Shown here: positions 2,420 through 12,168 of the stretch, in pieces
Position numbering within the stretch: the first letter of the stretch is position 1
Layout: every line of letters begins with the position of its first letter
DNA from: Candidatus Ratteibacteria bacterium
GTDB taxonomy: Bacteria > Ratteibacteria > UBA8468 > B48-G9 > JAFGKM01
Direction of reading: 5' to 3'
NCBI GenBank assembly: GCA_046296715.1
Contig: JBKBIN010000033.1
Coordinates: forward strand, 1 to 12,937
DNA length: 12,937 nucleotides
Notes under the pieces: model-generated
Seen by the model: only the letters and a program-made list of their open reading frames with translations
What the model was told of the DNA's origin: nothing
Database searches by the model: none
Made by a program: the position numbers and the translations under genes

Positions 2420-3271
2420 TTATAAAATTATTGGATTAGTCCATCCTTTTTTATTTTCTTTATTTGTTATCTCTATCCTTATGTATTTCTCTATTCCTTT
2501 TATTTTATATTCTGCATAGTTAAACTCTTTTCCATTTTTATAAATTCTTGTACCAGTTGAACCATAACCAATAAAATCAACAATAATAGATGGAGAAAAA
2601 GAAATTTTAATTGTACTGTCTTCAACTTTTAAATCTTTAATTATAACACCACTTGATGAATAAAACAATCCATTTTTAATTGAACTACATATTTCTTTTT
2701 CATTAAGAGAATTTGATTTTACCATTATAAAACCACCAAAAACATCTTTTTCACTGTGGCAATCATCAACTGCAAATCCTAAAATATTCAATCCTTTTTG
2801 TAGAAGTTCATCATAATGAGTAGTTGAATATCCTTTCCCTTTCTCAATTTCACAACTATTATTAAATATTTCAATACCAATAAATCCAGATAAAGAAAAA
2901 ATATCAATACTTGTTAATGCACTCCAATAAGGATGACAGATAATTGCAAAACCACCTATATCATTTATTTTTTTAATTATTTCCTGTGTAGATAGATTGT
3001 CAGTTGAAAAAGGTTGTTCAATTCCAAGTCCAAGGATATGAAAACTTTCTTTATTAAATTCAACACCTTTAATTGTCAAAAAATTATTTAAAGGACTTTT
3101 ATAATCAGTAATTTTATTATGGTCTGTTATAAAAAGAAAGTCATAAAAATTTTACATATAGATTTTAACTATTTCCTCAGGCGAAAATTTTCCATCCGAA
3201 TTTTTTGTATGAGTATGCAAATTCCCTTTAAACCATTTCCCTGTCTTTTCAAAAGGATTATTAAATTTCAT
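2420..3271 (-). pseudogene. PHP-fold metallohydrolase (CehA/McbA-like) with an internal in-frame TAA at 3152-3154
   Basis: ATG at 3271 with an AAGGAG RBS gives MKFNNPFEKTGKWFKGNLHTHTKNSDGKFSPEEIVKIYM*NFYDFLFITDHN...KGVE...HILG...CHP...IEIFN...DDCH. This is in frame with the track ORF 2420..3079, which lacks the HxH and TDH metal ligands. Confidence 0.8.
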
Positions 3272-3280
3272 ATTGCTCCT

Positions 3281-4975
3281 TTAAATTTTAAAACTTAATT
3301 TAGTATAATTCTCAAAAGGTGGGATTTCAAGAAAGTTTTCAATTACCTCATCATCTTTATCATAGAAAATATACAAGTAAATAGGGATCTTTGTTTTGCC
3401 CTTCAATATAATCTCAAGATTTTTATCAAAATTAATTTTTTCTATTGAGACACCTTGTAAATTTTTAGAATACAAACTTATATAATCATAACTTTTAAAA
3501 ATTATGTTCTTCGTCTTTATTGAGTTTATTATTCCCTTTATTATTTCTTCCCATTCTTCAATTTTTAAAAATGAGATCCTTTGTTCATGAGTCATTAAAC
3601 ATCCAAAAAACTTATTTTCAAGCCCACTCTCAATCTGAAATATCCCTCTTCTAATTGCTCTTTTAATATCTGTTGAATTGTTCTCATTCCAAAAAATTGT
3701 GCACTTATAAAGAAAATCAAAATCTACTTTTTTCTCATCTGATAATTTTTCCTCTATTTTTAATGGAAGAGATAAAACATTAAAGAAATCATTATCTTCA
3801 GGTAGTTCACTTAAAGAAAAGTTAATTTTATTGTATGGTTTTAAATCCCATATATGACCTTTTGGATCAGAATATGCTTTCCCAATCCTTATAATATTCA
3901 TTAAAAAATTCTGCTTCCTTTCTTTTAAATATGGAAGTGATTTAATTCCAACTTCTCCAAAATGGGCATTTAAAGTTATAGATGGTCTTATTCCAAATAA
4001 CTCAAATTTTCTATCAACTCTACCAAAGTTTTCTTTTAATTCATTGTCTGAAAACTCCTGTCCATTATGTTTCATATAGATTGGATACTCATTTATATTG
4101 TTTGGATCTGAAAAAGCATGAGGAGAAAATTCTGCCTGTTTTTCAAAATATTTTTCTCTTAATACTGGTATATCCTCATTTTGTATGTCATCAATAAAAA
4201 GTCCAAGATTTGGGATTATTTTATACTTATTTAAAATATCAACATATTTAAACCTTTCAACTGTCTCTTTATATTTTGCAACCTTACTTCCAGAACCAGA
4301 AACATCGTCAATCCTTGCAGTTATAAAAGGTGGCATTGTCTTTGTTATAAGTGGTTTTTTACTTGCCCAGACTAAACTTCTAAAAAAAATATCATCAAGT
4401 CCTTCTGTATGACCTAATATCTCATCTTGCCATAATCCAGCAGATGTAAGGAATAAAACTATTTTACCTTTACCAAATCTTCCATATATTCCACACACTT
4501 GCCAATCTTCACTGTAAAGAAAGGCATTCCAAAATTTATTATCAAATTTAACAGAATAAAACATCAATTCATTTTTTAATTCAATTTCATCATTGTAAGT
4601 TCCCTGACATATCCATGAATTTTTTTCAAGTTTTATTTTAGAAGTCCTTTTGGGAATAATTTCTTCTATTTTAAGACTTTTTAAAAAATCAGAAGGATAT
4701 GATGAAATATATCCATCAAAAATAACAATTCCAATTCCTGAATAAAGATTTTTTAGCAAAATATCTGTTTCTAATTTCCCAAGTGAAAACCCAAGACCTT
4801 CCTGACCAATAACAATTAAATTTGTATTTTCAATCTCCCTTTCAAAAAATCTTTCAAAAGCAAGGTCAATAATCTTATAGTGAAATCCAAAATGTTCTAT
4901 AGCAGAAAAAATCCCTTTTTCAGATCTTGAATATTGAACTGTCTTTAAAGAATCTATAATAATTTTTGTTTCCAT
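3281..4975 (-). CDS. Hypothetical protein with a possible C-terminal polysaccharide-deacetylase/GH57-like barrel domain
   Basis: 564-aa ORF whose start overlaps the hxlB stop (TAATG). ARIDD, EFSPHAF, AHFGE and MTHEQ resemble NodB-like (RxDD...H...H) motifs. The ORF is well supported, but the function is inferred. Confidence 0.55.
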   Translation of the reverse strand: METKIIIDSLKTVQYSRSEKGIFSAIEHFGFHYKIIDLAFERFFEREIENTNLIVIGQEGLGFSLGKLETDILLKNLYSGIGIVIFDGYISSYPSDFLKSLKIEEIIPKRTSKIKLEKNSWICQGTYNDEIELKNELMFYSVKFDNKFWNAFLYSEDWQVCGIYGRFGKGKIVLFLTSAGLWQDEILGHTEGLDDIFFRSLVWASKKPLITKTMPPFITARIDDVSGSGSKVAKYKETVERFKYVDILNKYKIIPNLGLFIDDIQNEDIPVLREKYFEKQAEFSPHAFSDPNNINEYPIYMKHNGQEFSDNELKENFGRVDRKFELFGIRPSITLNAHFGEVGIKSLPYLKERKQNFLMNIIRIGKAYSDPKGHIWDLKPYNKINFSLSELPEDNDFFNVLSLPLKIEEKLSDEKKVDFDFLYKCTIFWNENNSTDIKRAIRRGIFQIESGLENKFFGCLMTHEQRISFLKIEEWEEIIKGIINSIKTKNIIFKSYDYISLYSKNLQGVSIEKINFDKNLEIILKGKTKIPIYLYIFYDKDDEVIENFLEIPPFENYTKLSFKI

Positions 4976-5569: not shown

Positions 5570-7030
5570 ATGGCAATAAATTTAGAGAATAGAATTTTAA
5601 CAATTATGGAAAAAGGCGCCTCTCAAAAAGTTATAACAGGATTATTAAATGCTTCTTTAAAAAATTCAATAACAAGAAGAGCACTGATAAACGCGATTGA
5701 TAAAGCAACATATAAAATGTCTCTTCAAACATATGAAAGGCCAAAAAAAGTTTTAGAGGAAAGATACTATATGGGAAGAGCACTTTTACATTCAATAGAG
5801 AGATTGTTTGATACAGATAGTATTTCTCCAAACTGTGTAAGAGCACTTTCAAATATATTTCTTGGAAAAGTTTTTATTCAAGGAATTTATACAAGAAGGA
5901 CATTTGAAGAAAAACATGGATTTAGACCACCATGTTTTGTAACAATCTCACCAACAAATATATGTAATTTAAAATGTAAAGGTTGCTATGCAGGTGAAAT
6001 TTACGAAAAAAATACTTTAAAATTTGAAATCTTTGATAGAGTTATAAAAGAAATAAAGGAGCAATTTGGTGCATATTTTTTTGTTATTTCTGGAGGAGAA
6101 CCATTTATGTATAAAAGTGATGGAAAGACCCTCTTTGATATACTTGAAAAACATAATGATGCTTATTTTATGGCCTATACAAATGGAACTATGATTAAAA
6201 AAGATGTTGCAAAAAAATTATCCGAACTTGGTAATTTCACACCTGCTATATCTGTTGAAGGATTTGAAAAAGATACAGACGATAGAAGAGGAAACGGTGT
6301 TTTCAAAAGATTGATGGAAGTGATGGATGATTTAAGGGAAGAAGGTGTTCCTTTTGGAATATCTGTAACTCCGACAAGATATAACGCTGATTTACTTTTA
6401 TCAGATGAGTTTATTGATTTTTATTTTGAAAAGAAGGGTGCTTTTTATGGATGGTATTTTCAGTATATGCCTATAGGAAGAAAACCTTCGGTTGACTTAA
6501 TGGTAACACCAGAACAAAGATATAAAATGTTAAAGAGAATATGGCAACTTGTTATTGAAAAGAAAATTTTTATTGCTGATTTCTGGAACTCTGGAACTGC
6601 TTCTGATGGATGTATGGCTGCTGCAAGAGGTGGTGGATATTTTTATATAATGTGGGATGGAACAATAACTCCTTGTGTATTTATTCCATTTAAGGATAAA
6701 AACTTAGGAAATCTTTATAAGATCTATGAGGAGGGTAAAACAATAACTGATGCAATTAAATCACCATTATTTGAAAAAATAAGAGATTGGCAGAATAACT
6801 ACTGGATAAAAAGAAGTAAAAAAGAATGTGGAAACCTTCTCACCCCTTGTATAATAAGAGACAATTCCTTAGAGTTTTATAAGATAGTAAAAGATACTCA
6901 AGCTCAACCTATTGATGAAGGCGCGAAAGAATATCTGAAATTTATAGAAGAAGGAAAGATGCCAGAATATAACAAAAAATACAGAGAATTAACCGATCCT
7001 CTTTGGATAAATGAATATTTGAATGAGTAA
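5570..7030 (+). CDS. Radical SAM protein with C-terminal SPASM/twitch-like Cys motif
   Basis: CNLKCKGC (CxxxCxxC), SGGEPF, YTNGT, AISVEG, WYFQYMPIG and DFWN. Auxiliary cysteines in GCMAA...PCVF...CGNLLTPC. Strong RBS. Confidence 0.92.
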   Translation: MAINLENRILTIMEKGASQKVITGLLNASLKNSITRRALINAIDKATYKMSLQTYERPKKVLEERYYMGRALLHSIERLFDTDSISPNCVRALSNIFLGKVFIQGIYTRRTFEEKHGFRPPCFVTISPTNICNLKCKGCYAGEIYEKNTLKFEIFDRVIKEIKEQFGAYFFVISGGEPFMYKSDGKTLFDILEKHNDAYFMAYTNGTMIKKDVAKKLSELGNFTPAISVEGFEKDTDDRRGNGVFKRLMEVMDDLREEGVPFGISVTPTRYNADLLLSDEFIDFYFEKKGAFYGWYFQYMPIGRKPSVDLMVTPEQRYKMLKRIWQLVIEKKIFIADFWNSGTASDGCMAAARGGGYFYIMWDGTITPCVFIPFKDKNLGNLYKIYEEGKTITDAIKSPLFEKIRDWQNNYWIKRSKKECGNLLTPCIIRDNSLEFYKIVKDTQAQPIDEGAKEYLKFIEEGKMPEYNKKYRELTDPLWINEYLNE

Positions 7031-8636
7031 ATTTATAAGAACCATCCGAAAAATTAGAAGAATTAGAAGAATAGTAAATGTTCTTGTAAAATATGGGTTT
7101 GAAATATTTTTAGAAAGAATTCATATCTCAATATTTCCTCTCAAAAAGAAAAAAAAACTTGAATATTCATTGCCTTTAAGGGTTAGAAAAATTTTAGAAG
7201 AACTCGGTCCAACATTTATTAAACTCGGACAGATTTTGAGCACAAGACCTGACTTAATACCTTTTGAATACATAAAAGAACTTGAAAATCTTCAGGATAA
7301 TGTAAAACCAGAAAAATTTGAAGTAATGAAAGATACAATTGAAAAAGAATTTAATAAGAAATTAGAAGAGATTTTTGATAAATTTGATGAGCAACCAATT
7401 GCTTCTGCTTCACTATCCTGTGTTTATAAAGGTGTCTATAAAGGAAAAGAAGTTGCCGTTAAAGTTCAAAGACCAAATATAAAACAACAGATTTTTACTG
7501 ATATAGAAATTTTGTATGATATTGCTAATTTAATAGAAAGATTTATAAAGGAAAGTGAAATATACCAACCAATAAAGATAATAAAGGAGTTTGAAAAAAG
7601 TATCAAAAAAGAACTAAATTTTCTTATAGAATTGAGACATATTGAAATTATGAAAGAGAAAATGAAAAATTTTGAAAATTTGTTTATTCCTGATGTTTAT
7701 AAAGAAATCTCAACTGAAAAAATACTTGTAAGTGAATATATAGATGGTATAAAAATCAATAAAGTTGACCAGTGGAGTAAATATGTAAATAAAGAAGATG
7801 TACTGAAAAATGGGATTGATATAATTTTAAAACAGATTTTTGATGTTGGATTTTTTCATGGAGACCCGCATCCAGGGAATATCTTCATTCTTAAAGATGG
7901 AAGAATTGCTTTAATTGATTTTGGAATTGTTGGGCATCTTGATGAAGAAAAAAAGTATTATATTGTCAATCTGCTTTCAGGTATTATAAAAGGACAAGTA
8001 GATAGAATTATATATACTTTAAAACTTATGGGTTCACTAAATGAAACAATTGATATTCAAGAATTAAAAAATGATATTGAAGATATGATTGAACTATATA
8101 AAGATCTTCCTATCAAAAAAATAAAAATTGGAGAAGTTATGGGTAGTTTCTTTGATTTAATTAGACAATATAAAATTAAAATCCCTGTGAGTTTTTCTTT
8201 AATGAGTAAGTCAATAATTACTCTTGAAGGTATATGCCACTTTATTGAACCTAATTTTAAACTTACCGAAGCAATTGAACCATTTTTCATTGAAATTGTT
8301 GAGAAAAAAGTAAAACTTTCCTATTTTTTAAAGGAGTTTCAAAACATAATTACAAGATTAAATTATACAGTTAAAGAGATACCAGATACTATAGAAACAT
8401 TTATTGATGCAGTTAAGAACTTCAAAAGAAAAAATTATGAAAATGAAAATATTTTTCAAGATATAAACAAAGAGATTAAAAGGACAAGCATAAAAATTTC
8501 TTTCTCAATTCTAATTTCATCTTTTCTGATTTGTTCAACTTTTCTTTTTATTTCTAATTATTTTATTTTTGGTATTACTGGCTTTACTGTTTCTGCAGTT
8601 TTAATTCTTATATTTCTTCTAAAATTGGGAGGATGA
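7023..8636 (+). CDS. UbiB/AarF/ABC1-family atypical kinase-like protein, C-terminally membrane anchored
   Basis: LGPTFIKLGQILSTRPD (KxGQ), PIASAS, VAVKVQRP, HGDPHPGN and DFG motifs. Two hydrophobic C-terminal segments. 8-nt overlap with the radical SAM gene. Confidence 0.93.
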   Translation: MSKFIRTIRKIRRIRRIVNVLVKYGFEIFLERIHISIFPLKKKKKLEYSLPLRVRKILEELGPTFIKLGQILSTRPDLIPFEYIKELENLQDNVKPEKFEVMKDTIEKEFNKKLEEIFDKFDEQPIASASLSCVYKGVYKGKEVAVKVQRPNIKQQIFTDIEILYDIANLIERFIKESEIYQPIKIIKEFEKSIKKELNFLIELRHIEIMKEKMKNFENLFIPDVYKEISTEKILVSEYIDGIKINKVDQWSKYVNKEDVLKNGIDIILKQIFDVGFFHGDPHPGNIFILKDGRIALIDFGIVGHLDEEKKYYIVNLLSGIIKGQVDRIIYTLKLMGSLNETIDIQELKNDIEDMIELYKDLPIKKIKIGEVMGSFFDLIRQYKIKIPVSFSLMSKSIITLEGICHFIEPNFKLTEAIEPFFIEIVEKKVKLSYFLKEFQNIITRLNYTVKEIPDTIETFIDAVKNFKRKNYENENIFQDINKEIKRTSIKISFSILISSFLICSTFLFISNYFIFGITGFTVSAVLILIFLLKLGG

Positions 8637-8638
8637 AT

Positions 8639-9085
8639 ATGAAAATAGAAAATAAAAGTGCCTATCATAATTATGAAATACTTGAAAAGATTGAAGCAGG
8701 GATTGTCCTTAAAGGAAGCGAAGTAAAATCAATAAGAGATGGGAAAATTTCATTTAAAGATGCATATGCGAAAGTGGAAAATGGAGAAGTATTTCTTCAT
8801 AATTTTTACATTGCTCCATATCAATCATCATTTGAAAAAATAAATCCTTTGAGAAAGAAAAAACTATTACTTAATAAAAATGAAATCAGACGAATTGAAA
8901 GAAAAGTATCTGAAAAACACTTGACACTTATACCTCTTTCAGTGTATTTTAATAATAAAGGATTGGCAAAAATTGAACTTGCAGTTGCAAAAGGTAAAAA
9001 GCTCTTTGACAAAAGGAGAGAATTAAAAGAAAGAGAAATAAAAAGAGAGATAGAAAGAAAAATGAAAAATATGGGGGCGAAATAG
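8639..9085 (+). CDS. smpB: SsrA-binding protein SmpB
   Basis: NKSAYHNY, EAGIVLKGSEVKSIR, RKKKLLL, LTLIPLSVY and AKGKKLFDKR. GGAGG at 8628-8632 favours ATG 8639 over ATG 8633. Confidence 0.97.
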   Translation: MKIENKSAYHNYEILEKIEAGIVLKGSEVKSIRDGKISFKDAYAKVENGEVFLHNFYIAPYQSSFEKINPLRKKKLLLNKNEIRRIERKVSEKHLTLIPLSVYFNNKGLAKIELAVAKGKKLFDKRRELKEREIKREIERKMKNMGAK

Positions 9086-9425
9086 GGTTCGACAGGAAGA
9101 AATCTTTGATAATGTTGCCTGCCAAGTTTGTCAGGAACTTGTAAAAACCTGACAAAAAATAACTGCCGCAACAGCAAATACTTTGGCTGCATAAAAGCAG
9201 TCACCCATTTACAGAGTTTGCCTCTGACTCTGTAAAATGGGTCGGCAAAGAGGCATCTTGTTTGAGGTTATCCTTTCTTCCTCAAACAAGATTATCAAAA
9301 AGGATGCGAGTAAAAAGGTCTGTCAGAAGTACCTTTTTACTCAAAGATTAAACTTCTGACTACGCAGGTAGAGACATTATCAAAGATCTTCCTGGACGCG
9401 GGGGCAGTACCCGCCGCCTCCACCA
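9073..9425 (+). ncRNA. ssrA: tmRNA (one-piece, 353 nt)
   Basis: Acceptor stem GGGGGCG (9073-9079)/CGCCTCC (9415-9421) with a G3-U wobble and encoded ACCA. Helix 2 is ATCTTTGATAATGT/ACATTATCAAAGAT. PK1 is CAAG/CTTG plus GTCAGG/CCTGAC, followed by three further pseudoknot-like stems. T-stem GCGGG/CCCGC. Tag ORF ends in LAA-stop, and the gene adjoins smpB. Confidence 0.97.
9165..9194 (+). other. tmRNA tag reading frame, (A)AATANTLAA*
   Basis: After the upstream element AAAAATAACT the frame reads GCC GCA ACA GCA AAT ACT TTG GCT GCA TAA. The stop codon sits in the loop of hairpin GGCTGC/GCAGTC. Confidence 0.85.
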
Positions 9426-9446
9426 ATTAAAAATAAAGGTGAAAAG

Positions 9447-10550
9447 ATGCATAGAGAAAAAAAGTATTTTATATTTTTTTTTATTTTTCTTTTATTATCT
9501 TTAAACTTACATTCGTTTAACTTAGAAGAAGAAGTAAAGATAAAAAAATTGCCTACCTATTTAATAAAAAATGTTCAATATATATCATTAAAGTCCTTTC
9601 TTAAAATTATAAATTCAGATAATTGGGCAAAAATAGAAGATAGAGTTTTTTTATTTACTGATGAGACACAGATAAAATTTAGAATAGATGATACGAGTGT
9701 ACTTGTAGGTGGGAAAAGAATTGAAATTAAAAACCCTCCGAAAGAAGTTGAAGGTGAAGTTTTAATTCCAATTGAAGATTTTTCAAGGATATTTTCTGAT
9801 TTAAAAATTTCAGAAAAAAAGGAAGAAACAAAAAATATAATTGAAGAAAAAAAAGTAGATAAAAAATTTGTTATAGTAATAGATCCTGGACATGGAGGTC
9901 ATGATTCAGGTGCAATTGGAAATTTTGGCCTTAAAGAGAAAGATGTAAATCTTGATGTCTCCTTACGTCTTGAAAGATATCTAAAAAAACAACTTGAAAA
10001 TTACAAAAATATAGAGATTTATTTAACAAGAAAAGAAGATATTTTTATTTCTCTTGAAGAAAGAGTGAATATTGCAAAGACATACAATGCTAATATTTTC
10101 TTTTCTGTTCATACAAATTCCTCAAAATTTAATAGATATGAAGCAACTGGATTTGAAACCTATTTCCCTTATAGTAAAGTAGAAACAGATATTCTGCCTA
10201 AATCTAATAATAATGAGGAACTGTCTAATGAGAAAATTAATGATCCGGTTTTAACTGAAATATTGAATAATTTAAATGAGACAGATGTTATAGAAGAAAG
10301 CAGAATCCTTGCTGAATATGTACAGGAAAAACTTGCAGAACGGCTCATAATACCAGATAGAGGTGCTAAAAGAGGTAATTTCTATGTTTTAAAATATACA
10401 CCTATGATCTCAGTTTTAACCGAAATTGGTTTTATTTGCAATCCAAATATAGAATTTAATCTAAAAGATATTGAAGTAAGACAAGCAATTGCAGAAGCAC
10501 TTGGAAAAGGGATTATTGAATATCTTAAGAAAAGAGAAATAATTAAATGA
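9447..10550 (+). CDS. N-acetylmuramoyl-L-alanine amidase (Amidase_3, AmiC-like), secreted
   Basis: N-terminal hydrophobic signal. Zn/catalytic motifs IDPGHGG, EKDVNL, LTR, SVHTNS and LTEIGF. AAAGGTGA RBS. Confidence 0.93.
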   Translation: MHREKKYFIFFFIFLLLSLNLHSFNLEEEVKIKKLPTYLIKNVQYISLKSFLKIINSDNWAKIEDRVFLFTDETQIKFRIDDTSVLVGGKRIEIKNPPKEVEGEVLIPIEDFSRIFSDLKISEKKEETKNIIEEKKVDKKFVIVIDPGHGGHDSGAIGNFGLKEKDVNLDVSLRLERYLKKQLENYKNIEIYLTRKEDIFISLEERVNIAKTYNANIFFSVHTNSSKFNRYEATGFETYFPYSKVETDILPKSNNNEELSNEKINDPVLTEILNNLNETDVIEESRILAEYVQEKLAERLIIPDRGAKRGNFYVLKYTPMISVLTEIGFICNPNIEFNLKDIEVRQAIAEALGKGIIEYLKKREIIK

Positions 10551-11341: not shown

Positions 11342-11702
11342 ATTAAGAGTAAATGGAGAGTTTTCATCTGCTCATAGTTTAAGAAATTATAAAGGAAGAT
11401 GTGAAAATTTACATGGCCATAACTGGAAAGTCGAAATTATTGTATCTGGAGAATCTCTTGACAGTATTGGTCTACTTATAGATTTTAATATCTTAAAAAG
11501 GAAACTTAATATCGTTTTAAAGATGCTTGACCATAAAAACTTAAACTTAATACCATTTTTTAAAGAAAGAAATCCAAGTTCAGAAAATATTGCTTTCTTT
11601 ATATACAAAAAGATGGAAAAACTTCTTAAAGTTTATCCTATTAAAATAGAAAAAGTCACTGTTTGGGAAAATGAAAAACAATCTGCAAGTTACTACGAAT
11701 AA
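11334..11702 (+). CDS. queD: 6-carboxy-5,6,7,8-tetrahydropterin synthase
   Basis: FSSAHSL, CENLHGHNW (CxxxHGH), LDHKNLN, PSSENIA and VWE. Confidence 0.94.
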   Translation: MYELRVNGEFSSAHSLRNYKGRCENLHGHNWKVEIIVSGESLDSIGLLIDFNILKRKLNIVLKMLDHKNLNLIPFFKERNPSSENIAFFIYKKMEKLLKVYPIKIEKVTVWENEKQSASYYE

Positions 11703-12168
11703 AAATTTCTGGATAGTTGAAATATATAAGAAAAAAAATCTGAGAGATGTCTTTGGACAAGATATTAAAAAAAGTATTGAAGAATTAGGTATTTCTAAAA
11801 TTGAAGAAGTAAAAGTTTCTAATCTATATAAAATTGAGTGTAAAGCAGATAAAAAAAAAATAGAAAAGATTGCAAAACAACTTCTTATTGATAATATTTC
11901 TGAAAACTTTAAAATTTACAAAAAAACAAGGGCAAAGAAAAATTATTGGATTGTTGATGTATTTTTAAAAGATGGGGTTACTGATCCTGTTGGTGAAACA
12001 ACAAAAAAAACAATAATAGAGAGTAAGATTTTAAATGATGTTGAAGTGAAAACAGGTAAAAAATATTATATTAAAGGCAAGTTAAATCAATCTCAAATAA
12101 AGAATATATGTGAGAAAATTCTCGCAAATACTTTAATCCATAATTATTTTATTTTAAAAAGGACTTGA
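11671..12168 (+). CDS. purS: FGAM synthase PurS-like subunit with two tandem PurS domains
   Basis: Two similar halves: WIVEIYKKKNLRDVFG...VKVSNLYKIE...QLLIDNISENF and WIVDVFLKDGVTDPVG...VKTGKKYYIK...KILANTLIHNY. Lies directly upstream of purL. Confidence 0.82.
   Translation: MKNNLQVTTNKNFWIVEIYKKKNLRDVFGQDIKKSIEELGISKIEEVKVSNLYKIECKADKKKIEKIAKQLLIDNISENFKIYKKTRAKKNYWIVDVFLKDGVTDPVGETTKKTIIESKILNDVEVKTGKKYYIKGKLNQSQIKNICEKILANTLIHNYFILKRT

What the first reader, a model, noticed from the sequence alone, without database searches (positions are those of the whole stretch)
9071..9085. smpB stop codon lies inside the mature tmRNA: possible trans-translation autoregulatory loop
Seen: smpB ends ATG GGG GCG AAA TAG (9071-9085) while the tmRNA acceptor stem starts at G9073, giving a 13-nt same-strand overlap. 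Known: RNase P makes the tmRNA 5' end, and stop-less mRNAs are substrates of tmRNA-SmpB; arfA is controlled through a non-stop mRNA. Inference: cutting tmRNA out of an smpB-ssrA co-transcript at 9072/9073 leaves smpB mRNA ending ...AAA AAT AT without a stop codon. SmpB made from it would be tagged and degraded when trans-translation is active, giving negative feedback on the SmpB:tmRNA ratio. Ribosomes finishing smpB would also melt the acceptor stem, coupling translation to tmRNA maturation. I do not recall this arrangement being described, but could not check.
Basis: partly seen in the sequence, partly recalled or inferred. Interest (0 to 1): 0.85.

Follow-up and report, generated by a model that had tools for sequence, protein, structure and literature searches.

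The report
smpB stop codon inside tmRNA gene
In this uncultured bacterium the gene for the ribosome-rescue protein SmpB borrows its stop codon from the first bases of its partner RNA gene; the layout is real and shared by many relatives, but the feedback idea is already published for an insect symbiont and the evidence points mainly to tight gene packing around a promoter hidden inside smpB.

Summary
Observation confirmed: smpB (8639-9085) ends 13 nt inside tmRNA (9073-9425). It is not an artefact. The same overlap occurs in 24 of 53 scorable Ca. Ratteibacteria genomes, most likely two independent gains and one reversal. The layout and the feedback idea were published for Carsonella (Hudson 2014), and this scan noted similar cases on other DNA. 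New here: clade-wide conservation with an intact SmpB tail, and a sigma70-like ssrA promoter inside smpB (TTGACA in 24/24 overlap genomes, 0/11 genomes with a spacer promoter), so most tmRNA is probably made independently of smpB mRNA. Controls argue against selected regulation. An unrelated gene (mtnA) ends 10 nt inside tRNA-Val in 9/9 scorable genus members. Upstream stop gains are absent in non-overlap clades too. ClpX and RNase R were not found in 65 genomes. The ArfB-like factor does not track the overlap. Overlaps also turned up in 8 genomes of other lineages. Best reading: spacer collapse onto a pre-existing TAG, with non-stop smpB mRNA as a by-product (0.68). Selected autoregulation is not excluded (0.2) and has not been tested.

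The parts
8639..9085 (+). smpB, 148 aa, full C-terminal tail (DKR+22). The last base of codon 145, Gly-Ala-Lys and the TAG stop come from tmRNA nt 1-13
   Evidence: start chosen by comparison with relatives
9073..9425 (+). tmRNA (ssrA), one-piece, CCA encoded
   Evidence: Rfam RF00023 167.5 bits, model 1-374; fold z-score -10 for 8957-9440
9073..9085 (+). 13-nt overlap: acceptor-stem 5' strand plus the AAATAG of the D-loop-like region
9165..9194 (+). tag reading frame AATANTLAA*
   Evidence: relatives end LAA, MAA or LPA
8921..8950 (+). putative internal sigma70-type ssrA promoter: TTGACA (Leu-Thr codons), 18 nt, TATTTT; inferred start near 8957, about 116 nt before the tmRNA
   Evidence: consensus scan; synonymous-site conservation; not shown experimentally
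9003..9019 (+). small predicted hairpin holding a second TTGACA (9006-9011) with no -10 at the usual spacing; GAC codon fixed in 11/11 genus members; unexplained
7023..8636 (+). upstream UbiB/ABC1-type kinase gene, ending 2 nt before the smpB start; probably co-transcribed
   Evidence: upstream of smpB in 11/11 genus members
9447..10550 (+). downstream N-acetylmuramoyl-L-alanine amidase gene starting 21 nt after the tmRNA end; no + strand terminator-like site found after ssrA

Best explanation
The overlap is a tolerated result of gene packing. ssrA has its own promoter inside the smpB coding sequence (inferred), so the spacer was dispensable. When it was deleted in the one frame where the tmRNA 5' end already held a stop (TAG at nt 11-13), smpB took that stop and gained Gly-Ala-Lys. 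This probably happened twice in the order (inferred from a tree). The state persists because a point-mutation stop upstream would shorten the SmpB tail, which is under selection in all clades; only an insertion reverses it (seen once). Most tmRNA would mature from the short internal-promoter transcript. Full-length SmpB is made while the tmRNA 3' strand is not yet transcribed or a ribosome covers the stem (inferred). Once RNase P cuts a read-through transcript, the remaining smpB mRNA is non-stop, and its product (144 aa plus the tag) goes to proteases other than ClpXP (inferred). Any damping of SmpB is a side effect, not the reason the overlap exists.
For: Shown: the TAG pre-exists in 14 of 19 non-overlap genomes of the order, and the other two frames read 20-218 nt into the tmRNA. 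Internal TTGACA is in 24/24 overlap genomes, 0/11 genomes with a TTGACA-17/18-TANNNT promoter in the spacer, and 4/8 gapped genomes without one; background TTG/Leu in the order is 0.05-0.24. Control 1: mtnA ends 10 nt inside tRNA-Val(CAC) in 9 of 9 scorable genus members and in G013, and 22 nt inside in four g5/g6 genomes; 2 of 41 tRNAs in this genome are overlapped by an upstream ORF. Control 2: a rough neutral expectation of stop gains at DKR+17/+18 is 4.9 (g1), 7.9 (f2) and 6.7 (non-overlap g3/g5/g6); none was observed in any of the three. ClpX is over cut-off in 0/65 and an RNB-family nuclease is found in 0/65 genomes. A short ArfB-like frame is in 10/11 of g1 and in most non-overlap f1 genera, but in 0/15 of the overlap family f2 with this query. 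Overlaps of 1, 8, 11, 24 and 32 nt occur in other lineages, with no fixed design.
Against: Both inferred origins have the same register (DKR+18 codons+2 nt) with no indel in 24 genomes. Short spacers (7-48 nt) persist in genomes that also have the internal promoter, so the promoter does not force the overlap. The promoter is inferred from sequence only. The stop-gain expectation is crude (4-fold tree length x paths/3, near saturation). The genomes are incomplete MAGs. An overlap that began as packing could have been co-opted later.
Confidence: 0.68

Rival explanations
1. Selected autoregulation. RNase P turns most smpB mRNA non-stop. Active tmRNA-SmpB tags the product for Lon, ClpCP, FtsH or Tsp. 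When trans-translation is limiting, a nearly complete SmpB (tail to DKR+18) is released and works. tmRNA comes from its own promoter, so the loop tunes SmpB alone.
For: Probably two independent gains at the same register, P(overlap) about 0.1 at the order ancestor; one reversal among 26 genomes of the two clades; recurrence in 8 genomes of other lineages. The truncated product keeps the positions matching E. coli I154/M155 (DKR at 137; importance of I154/M155; the residue match is my count). RNase P, ClpP, a Lon fragment at a contig end, a ClpA/B/C-type ATPase, FtsH and Prc are present.
Against: mtnA-tRNA-Val is as conserved with no such logic. Retention is matched in non-overlap clades. 29 of 53 scored genomes manage without the overlap. 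ClpX and RNase R not found. ArfB-like factor not found in f2.
Confidence: 0.2
2. The overlap is kept as an mRNA-turnover device, not as SmpB feedback. In a lineage without RNase R/II, the RNase P cut punctuates the long operon transcript and leaves an unprotected 3' end that sets the lifetime of the upstream mRNA. The same would hold for mtnA-tRNA-Val.
For: RNB-family nuclease in 0/65 genomes; operon layout with no + strand terminator-like site near the junction; parallel conserved CDS-tRNA overlap.
Against: Punctuation works equally with a few-nt spacer, as in G013, G016 and G034; no expression data.
Confidence: 0.08
3. Assembly error or recent stop-codon loss in this genome.
For: None found.
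Against: The same junction is in 11 of 11 species of the genus (SmpB 78-94% identical to this one) and in 13 scored genomes of another family.
Confidence: 0.01

Closest known systems
smpB-ssrA overlap in Ca. Carsonella ruddii (Mao et al. 2009, not read, as cited in Hudson, Lau & Williams 2014, PMC4131195)
   Same: smpB CDS runs into ssrA on the same strand; the authors state that tmRNA maturation would make smpB mRNA a non-stop substrate of its own product.
   Different: [quoted passage not shown] Here SmpB is complete, the 13-nt register is fixed across a genus and most of a family, and an internal ssrA promoter is conserved.
Same-strand CDS overlaps with t(m)RNA genes (Hudson 2014, Table 4: 250 upstream-CDS cases among 115,660 valid t(m)RNAs, e.g. 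44 in Helicobacter)
   Same: A CDS borrows a stop from an RNase P substrate, and the overlap is inherited within a clade; mtnA-tRNA-Val in this genome is another case.
   Different: Here the CDS encodes the rescue factor itself, which makes a loop formally possible.
arfA control by non-stop mRNA (RNase III site; cited in Hudson 2014, mechanism otherwise recalled)
   Same: A nuclease cut before the stop would expose the product to tagging, and the truncated product could be active.
   Different: arfA is a backup factor with demonstrated regulation. Here the cut would be by RNase P, nothing is demonstrated, and release by a backup factor is doubtful in f2.

Membership tests
Standard one-piece tmRNA + SmpB | Full RF00023 match, G3.U acceptor stem, tag ORF | tested here: met
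Standard one-piece tmRNA + SmpB | SmpB with intact GKK..DKR tail | tested here: met
Carsonella-type smpB/ssrA overlap | smpB stop inside the mature tmRNA, same strand | tested here: met
Carsonella-type smpB/ssrA overlap | RNase P available to cut the co-transcript | tested here: met
   RF00010 304 bits; PF00825 over cut-off
arfA-type non-stop-mRNA regulation | Most mRNA is cut before the stop in vivo | not testable with these tools
   needs RNA end mapping; no RNA run was available to lay
arfA-type non-stop-mRNA regulation | Product tagged and degraded when trans-translation is active | not testable with these tools
   ClpX not found; other proteases present
arfA-type non-stop-mRNA regulation | Backup release factor co-occurring with the non-stop design | tested here: not met
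   ArfB-like frame in g1 and non-overlap genera, 0/15 in overlap family f2 with this query; no ArfA or RqcH-type match in this genome
arfA-type non-stop-mRNA regulation | Conservation beyond what packing and protein constraint explain | tested here: inconclusive
   controls match the retention, but two gains at one register

The most novel reading that the evidence does not exclude
Bacteria from several phyla have repeatedly moved the ssrA promoter into smpB and placed the smpB stop inside the tmRNA. RNase P cleavage then makes SmpB synthesis self-limiting through trans-translation, and in Ratteibacteria it does so without ClpX or RNase R. This would be a recurring, selected autoregulatory circuit of the core rescue system, not a Carsonella oddity.
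Probability: 0.2. Interest if true: 0.7.

Novelty: new member of a known kind. Interest (0 to 1): 0.32.

Why it matters
It corrects the published statement that the overlap is confined to Carsonella: it is fixed in two Ratteibacteria clades and scattered in other lineages. It also gives a case with an intact SmpB and natural overlap/non-overlap sister pairs (G034 against its genus; g1 against g4/g7), in which the 2014 feedback idea can be tested. If the loop is real, the main ribosome-rescue system would set the level of its own protein. If not, the case shows that bacteria tolerate routine non-stop mRNA from RNase P cuts.

Tried and rejected
ARAGORN found no tmRNA in the window; Rfam was used instead. 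The look-up of sequencing runs: no RNA holder listed, so no reads were laid; this is no evidence either way. The first broad GTDB pattern gave mostly chance hits (1 smpB-bearing locus of 120). The second stopped at 120 rows and was built to favour short distances, so 8 of 39 is not a frequency. A search for earlier notes on look-alike stretches gave nothing. The second TTGACA at 9006-9011 was rejected as the main promoter: no -10 at 16-18 nt. The script stopped with an error after the order-level rows; tags were redone, where the regular expression misread or missed many rows and I read those by eye. This genome has no rpoC match over the search threshold, so it and G009, G013, G051 and G057 are placed in the tree by SmpB alone. 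A single origin at the order root was considered; it needs 4-5 losses and got P about 0.1. Paper searches found no report beyond Hudson 2014 and none on Ratteibacteria tmRNA; the library lacks most subscription journals. Mao 2009 and all supplements were not read and may list further overlaps. No structure or complex prediction was run, as it would not bear on the question.

Full report
Observation. smpB (SmpB families over cut-off) runs from ATG 8639 to TAG 9085. Rfam places a complete tmRNA at 9073-9425 (167.5 bits), with the acceptor stem 9073-9079/9415-9421, G3.U and an encoded CCA. The last 13 nt of smpB are therefore the first 13 nt of the mature tmRNA. The tag frame 9165-9194 encodes AATANTLAA. 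A cut at 9072/9073 would leave 144 whole codons and two bases with no stop.

Already in print. [quoted passage not shown] They call it a feedback situation in which smpB mRNA becomes a non-stop substrate of its own product, and say they found it nowhere else and in only half the strains. Five paper searches and passages of the 2025 tmRNA database paper showed no other report. Unchecked notes of this scan describe the same layout in two small-genome bacteria and similar overlaps with other genes.

Distribution. Public records with the same tmRNA 5' end and SmpB tail are titled Ca. Ratteibacteria, Omnitrophota or TA06, so I take the lineage to be Ratteibacteria. Of 65 phylum genomes, 56 had a tmRNA match. 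G030 and G060 were partial and G050 lacks most of smpB, leaving 53 scored. The exact 13-nt overlap is in 24 of 53: 11 of 11 in the window's genus (g1) and 13 of 14 in family f2. G050 also reads in the same frame by eye. The other 29 have spacers of 1-200 nt. An RpoB-RpoC tree gives (f2,(f3,f1)) with g1 nested among non-overlap genera and G034 (7-nt spacer, 14 nt longer) nested in f2. A two-state model on 50 genomes gives P(overlap) about 0.1 at the order ancestor, 0.001 at f1, 0.999 at g1 and 0.95 at f2: two gains and one loss. All overlap genomes have the same register, DKR+18 codons+2 nt. The stop is used: TAG in 25/25 overlap genomes, CAG in 5/19 others of the order. Outside the phylum, a truncated and distance-biased pattern scan gave 39 smpB-tmRNA loci, 8 with overlaps of 1-32 nt (Caldatribacteriota, Elusimicrobia, two deltaproteobacterial MAGs, Clostridia, Sungbacteria, Erysipelotrichales, one unnamed). 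All 8 tmRNAs were confirmed by Rfam. The overlap is thus far more widespread than published.

A hidden promoter. Genera g5 and g6 carry TTGACA-17/18 nt-TANNNT in the spacer, mostly with the -35 on the smpB TGA stop (11 genomes). Overlap genomes instead fix TTG-ACA at a Leu-Thr pair followed 18 nt later by TATTTT or TATACT (window 8921-8950): 24/24, against 0/11 in genomes with a spacer promoter and 4/8 (6/8 as TTGACN) in gapped genomes without one. In the overlap clades TTG makes up 11-21% of Leu codons, and four-fold tree lengths are about 11-13 substitutions per site, so this is not simple inheritance. I infer an ssrA promoter inside smpB with a start near 8957. It would make the spacer dispensable and supply tmRNA without smpB translation, which undercuts the proposed coupling of translation to maturation. 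It does not remove the non-stop consequence for smpB mRNA. Of the 8 overlaps outside the phylum, 7 could be read at this codon pair; one has TTGACA and one TTGACC.

Is the overlap selected for regulation? Four tests say it need not be. (1) mtnA ends 10 nt inside tRNA-Val(CAC) in 9 of 9 scorable g1 genomes (G007 truncated, G004 without a hit) and in G013, and 22 nt inside in G015, G019, G023 and G029 (30 loci examined). A fumarate hydratase subunit overlaps tRNA-Arg in 3 of 11 genus members. So 2 of this genome's 41 tRNAs are overlapped. (2) Stop gains at DKR+17/+18 were expected about 5, 8 and 7 times if neutral in g1, f2 and the non-overlap clade g3/g5/g6, and none occurred in any. Tail length is under selection regardless of the overlap, and non-overlap tails in the order are DKR+19 to +21. 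The estimate is rough. (3) The TAG pre-exists in 14 of 19 non-overlap genomes and the other frames read 20-218 nt into the tmRNA, so a 13-nt overlap is the easy outcome of a spacer deletion. (4) ClpX is over cut-off in 0 of 65 genomes (8 have sub-cut-off matches) and RNB-family nucleases are in 0 of 65; here a lon fragment follows clpP directly. RNase R is the main non-stop mRNA decay factor in E. coli (PMC4176180, passages); that ClpXP is the main protease for tagged proteins is recalled. An ArfB-like 118-aa protein (GGQ-type RF-1 domain, below the ArfB cut-off) is in 10/11 of g1 and in non-overlap g3, g4, g5 and g7, but was not found with this query in f2 (0/15).

Two origins at one register, one reversal in 26 genomes, recurrence across phyla, and short-spacer genomes showing that the promoter does not force the overlap. 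The truncated SmpB would keep the tail past the positions matching E. coli I154/M155 (my count from DKR), so it could be active. RNase P and alternative proteases (ClpP, a ClpA/B/C-type ATPase, FtsH, Prc, partial Lon) are present. No expression data could be examined.

Mechanism, by status. Shown: overlap, conservation, use of the stop, synonymous conservation of a promoter consensus, parallel CDS-tRNA overlaps. Inferred: promoter activity, RNase P cleavage of the read-through transcript, normal termination by ribosomes that reach the stop before the tmRNA 3' strand is made, and tagging of SmpB from cut transcripts. Verdict: a real, clade-conserved new instance of a published arrangement, most likely packing with a non-stop by-product (0.68); selected autoregulation 0.2. 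Interest 0.32.

Noticed in passing
G000:C7:47554-48612 and tRNA-Val(CAC) 48603-48677 (L288): mtnA stop codon lies 10 nt inside tRNA-Val in 9/9 scorable genus members and G013; a 22-nt overlap in four g5/g6 genomes.
   Followed up: yes
G000:C4:27815-28381 and tRNA-Arg(GCG) 28359-28432 (L287): A fumarate hydratase beta-type gene runs 23 nt into tRNA-Arg; sporadic in the genus (3 of 11, different lengths).
   Followed up: yes
phylum-wide, loci L227-L282: rpoB and rpoC appear fused: single open frames of about 2500-2650 aa in most genomes.
   Followed up: partly
phylum-wide: No ClpX over cut-off and no RNase R/RNase II family protein in 65 genomes although tmRNA-SmpB is kept; clpP is followed directly by lon in G000:C66.
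   Followed up: partly
families f4 and f5: RNase P protein (PF00825) not found in 13 of 13 genomes, against 45 of 52 in the window's order; may be divergent or replaced.
   Followed up: no
window 9003-9019: Small predicted hairpin with a second TTGACA; the GAC codon is fixed in 11/11 genus members against 9-20% background use. Family f2 also fixes unusual codons just downstream.
   Followed up: partly
L012, L016, L023, L014, L039, L040, L054 and others, 40-60 nt after the tmRNA 3' end: A short recurring GC-rich element follows ssrA in many relatives but not in this window; may be a mobile repeat.
   Followed up: no
L360, L107, L440, L420, L344, L404, L358, L367: smpB-ssrA overlaps of 11, 24, 32, 32, 11, 11, 8 and 1 nt outside Ratteibacteria.
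   Followed up: partly
window 3281-4975 (-) and 2420-3079 (-): 563-aa and 219-aa ORFs with no Pfam match at E 0.001; the first also has no NCBIfam match.
   Followed up: no
window 11671-12168 (+): PurS-like ORF with two PurS-type stretches, suggesting a tandem PurS domain protein.
   Followed up: no
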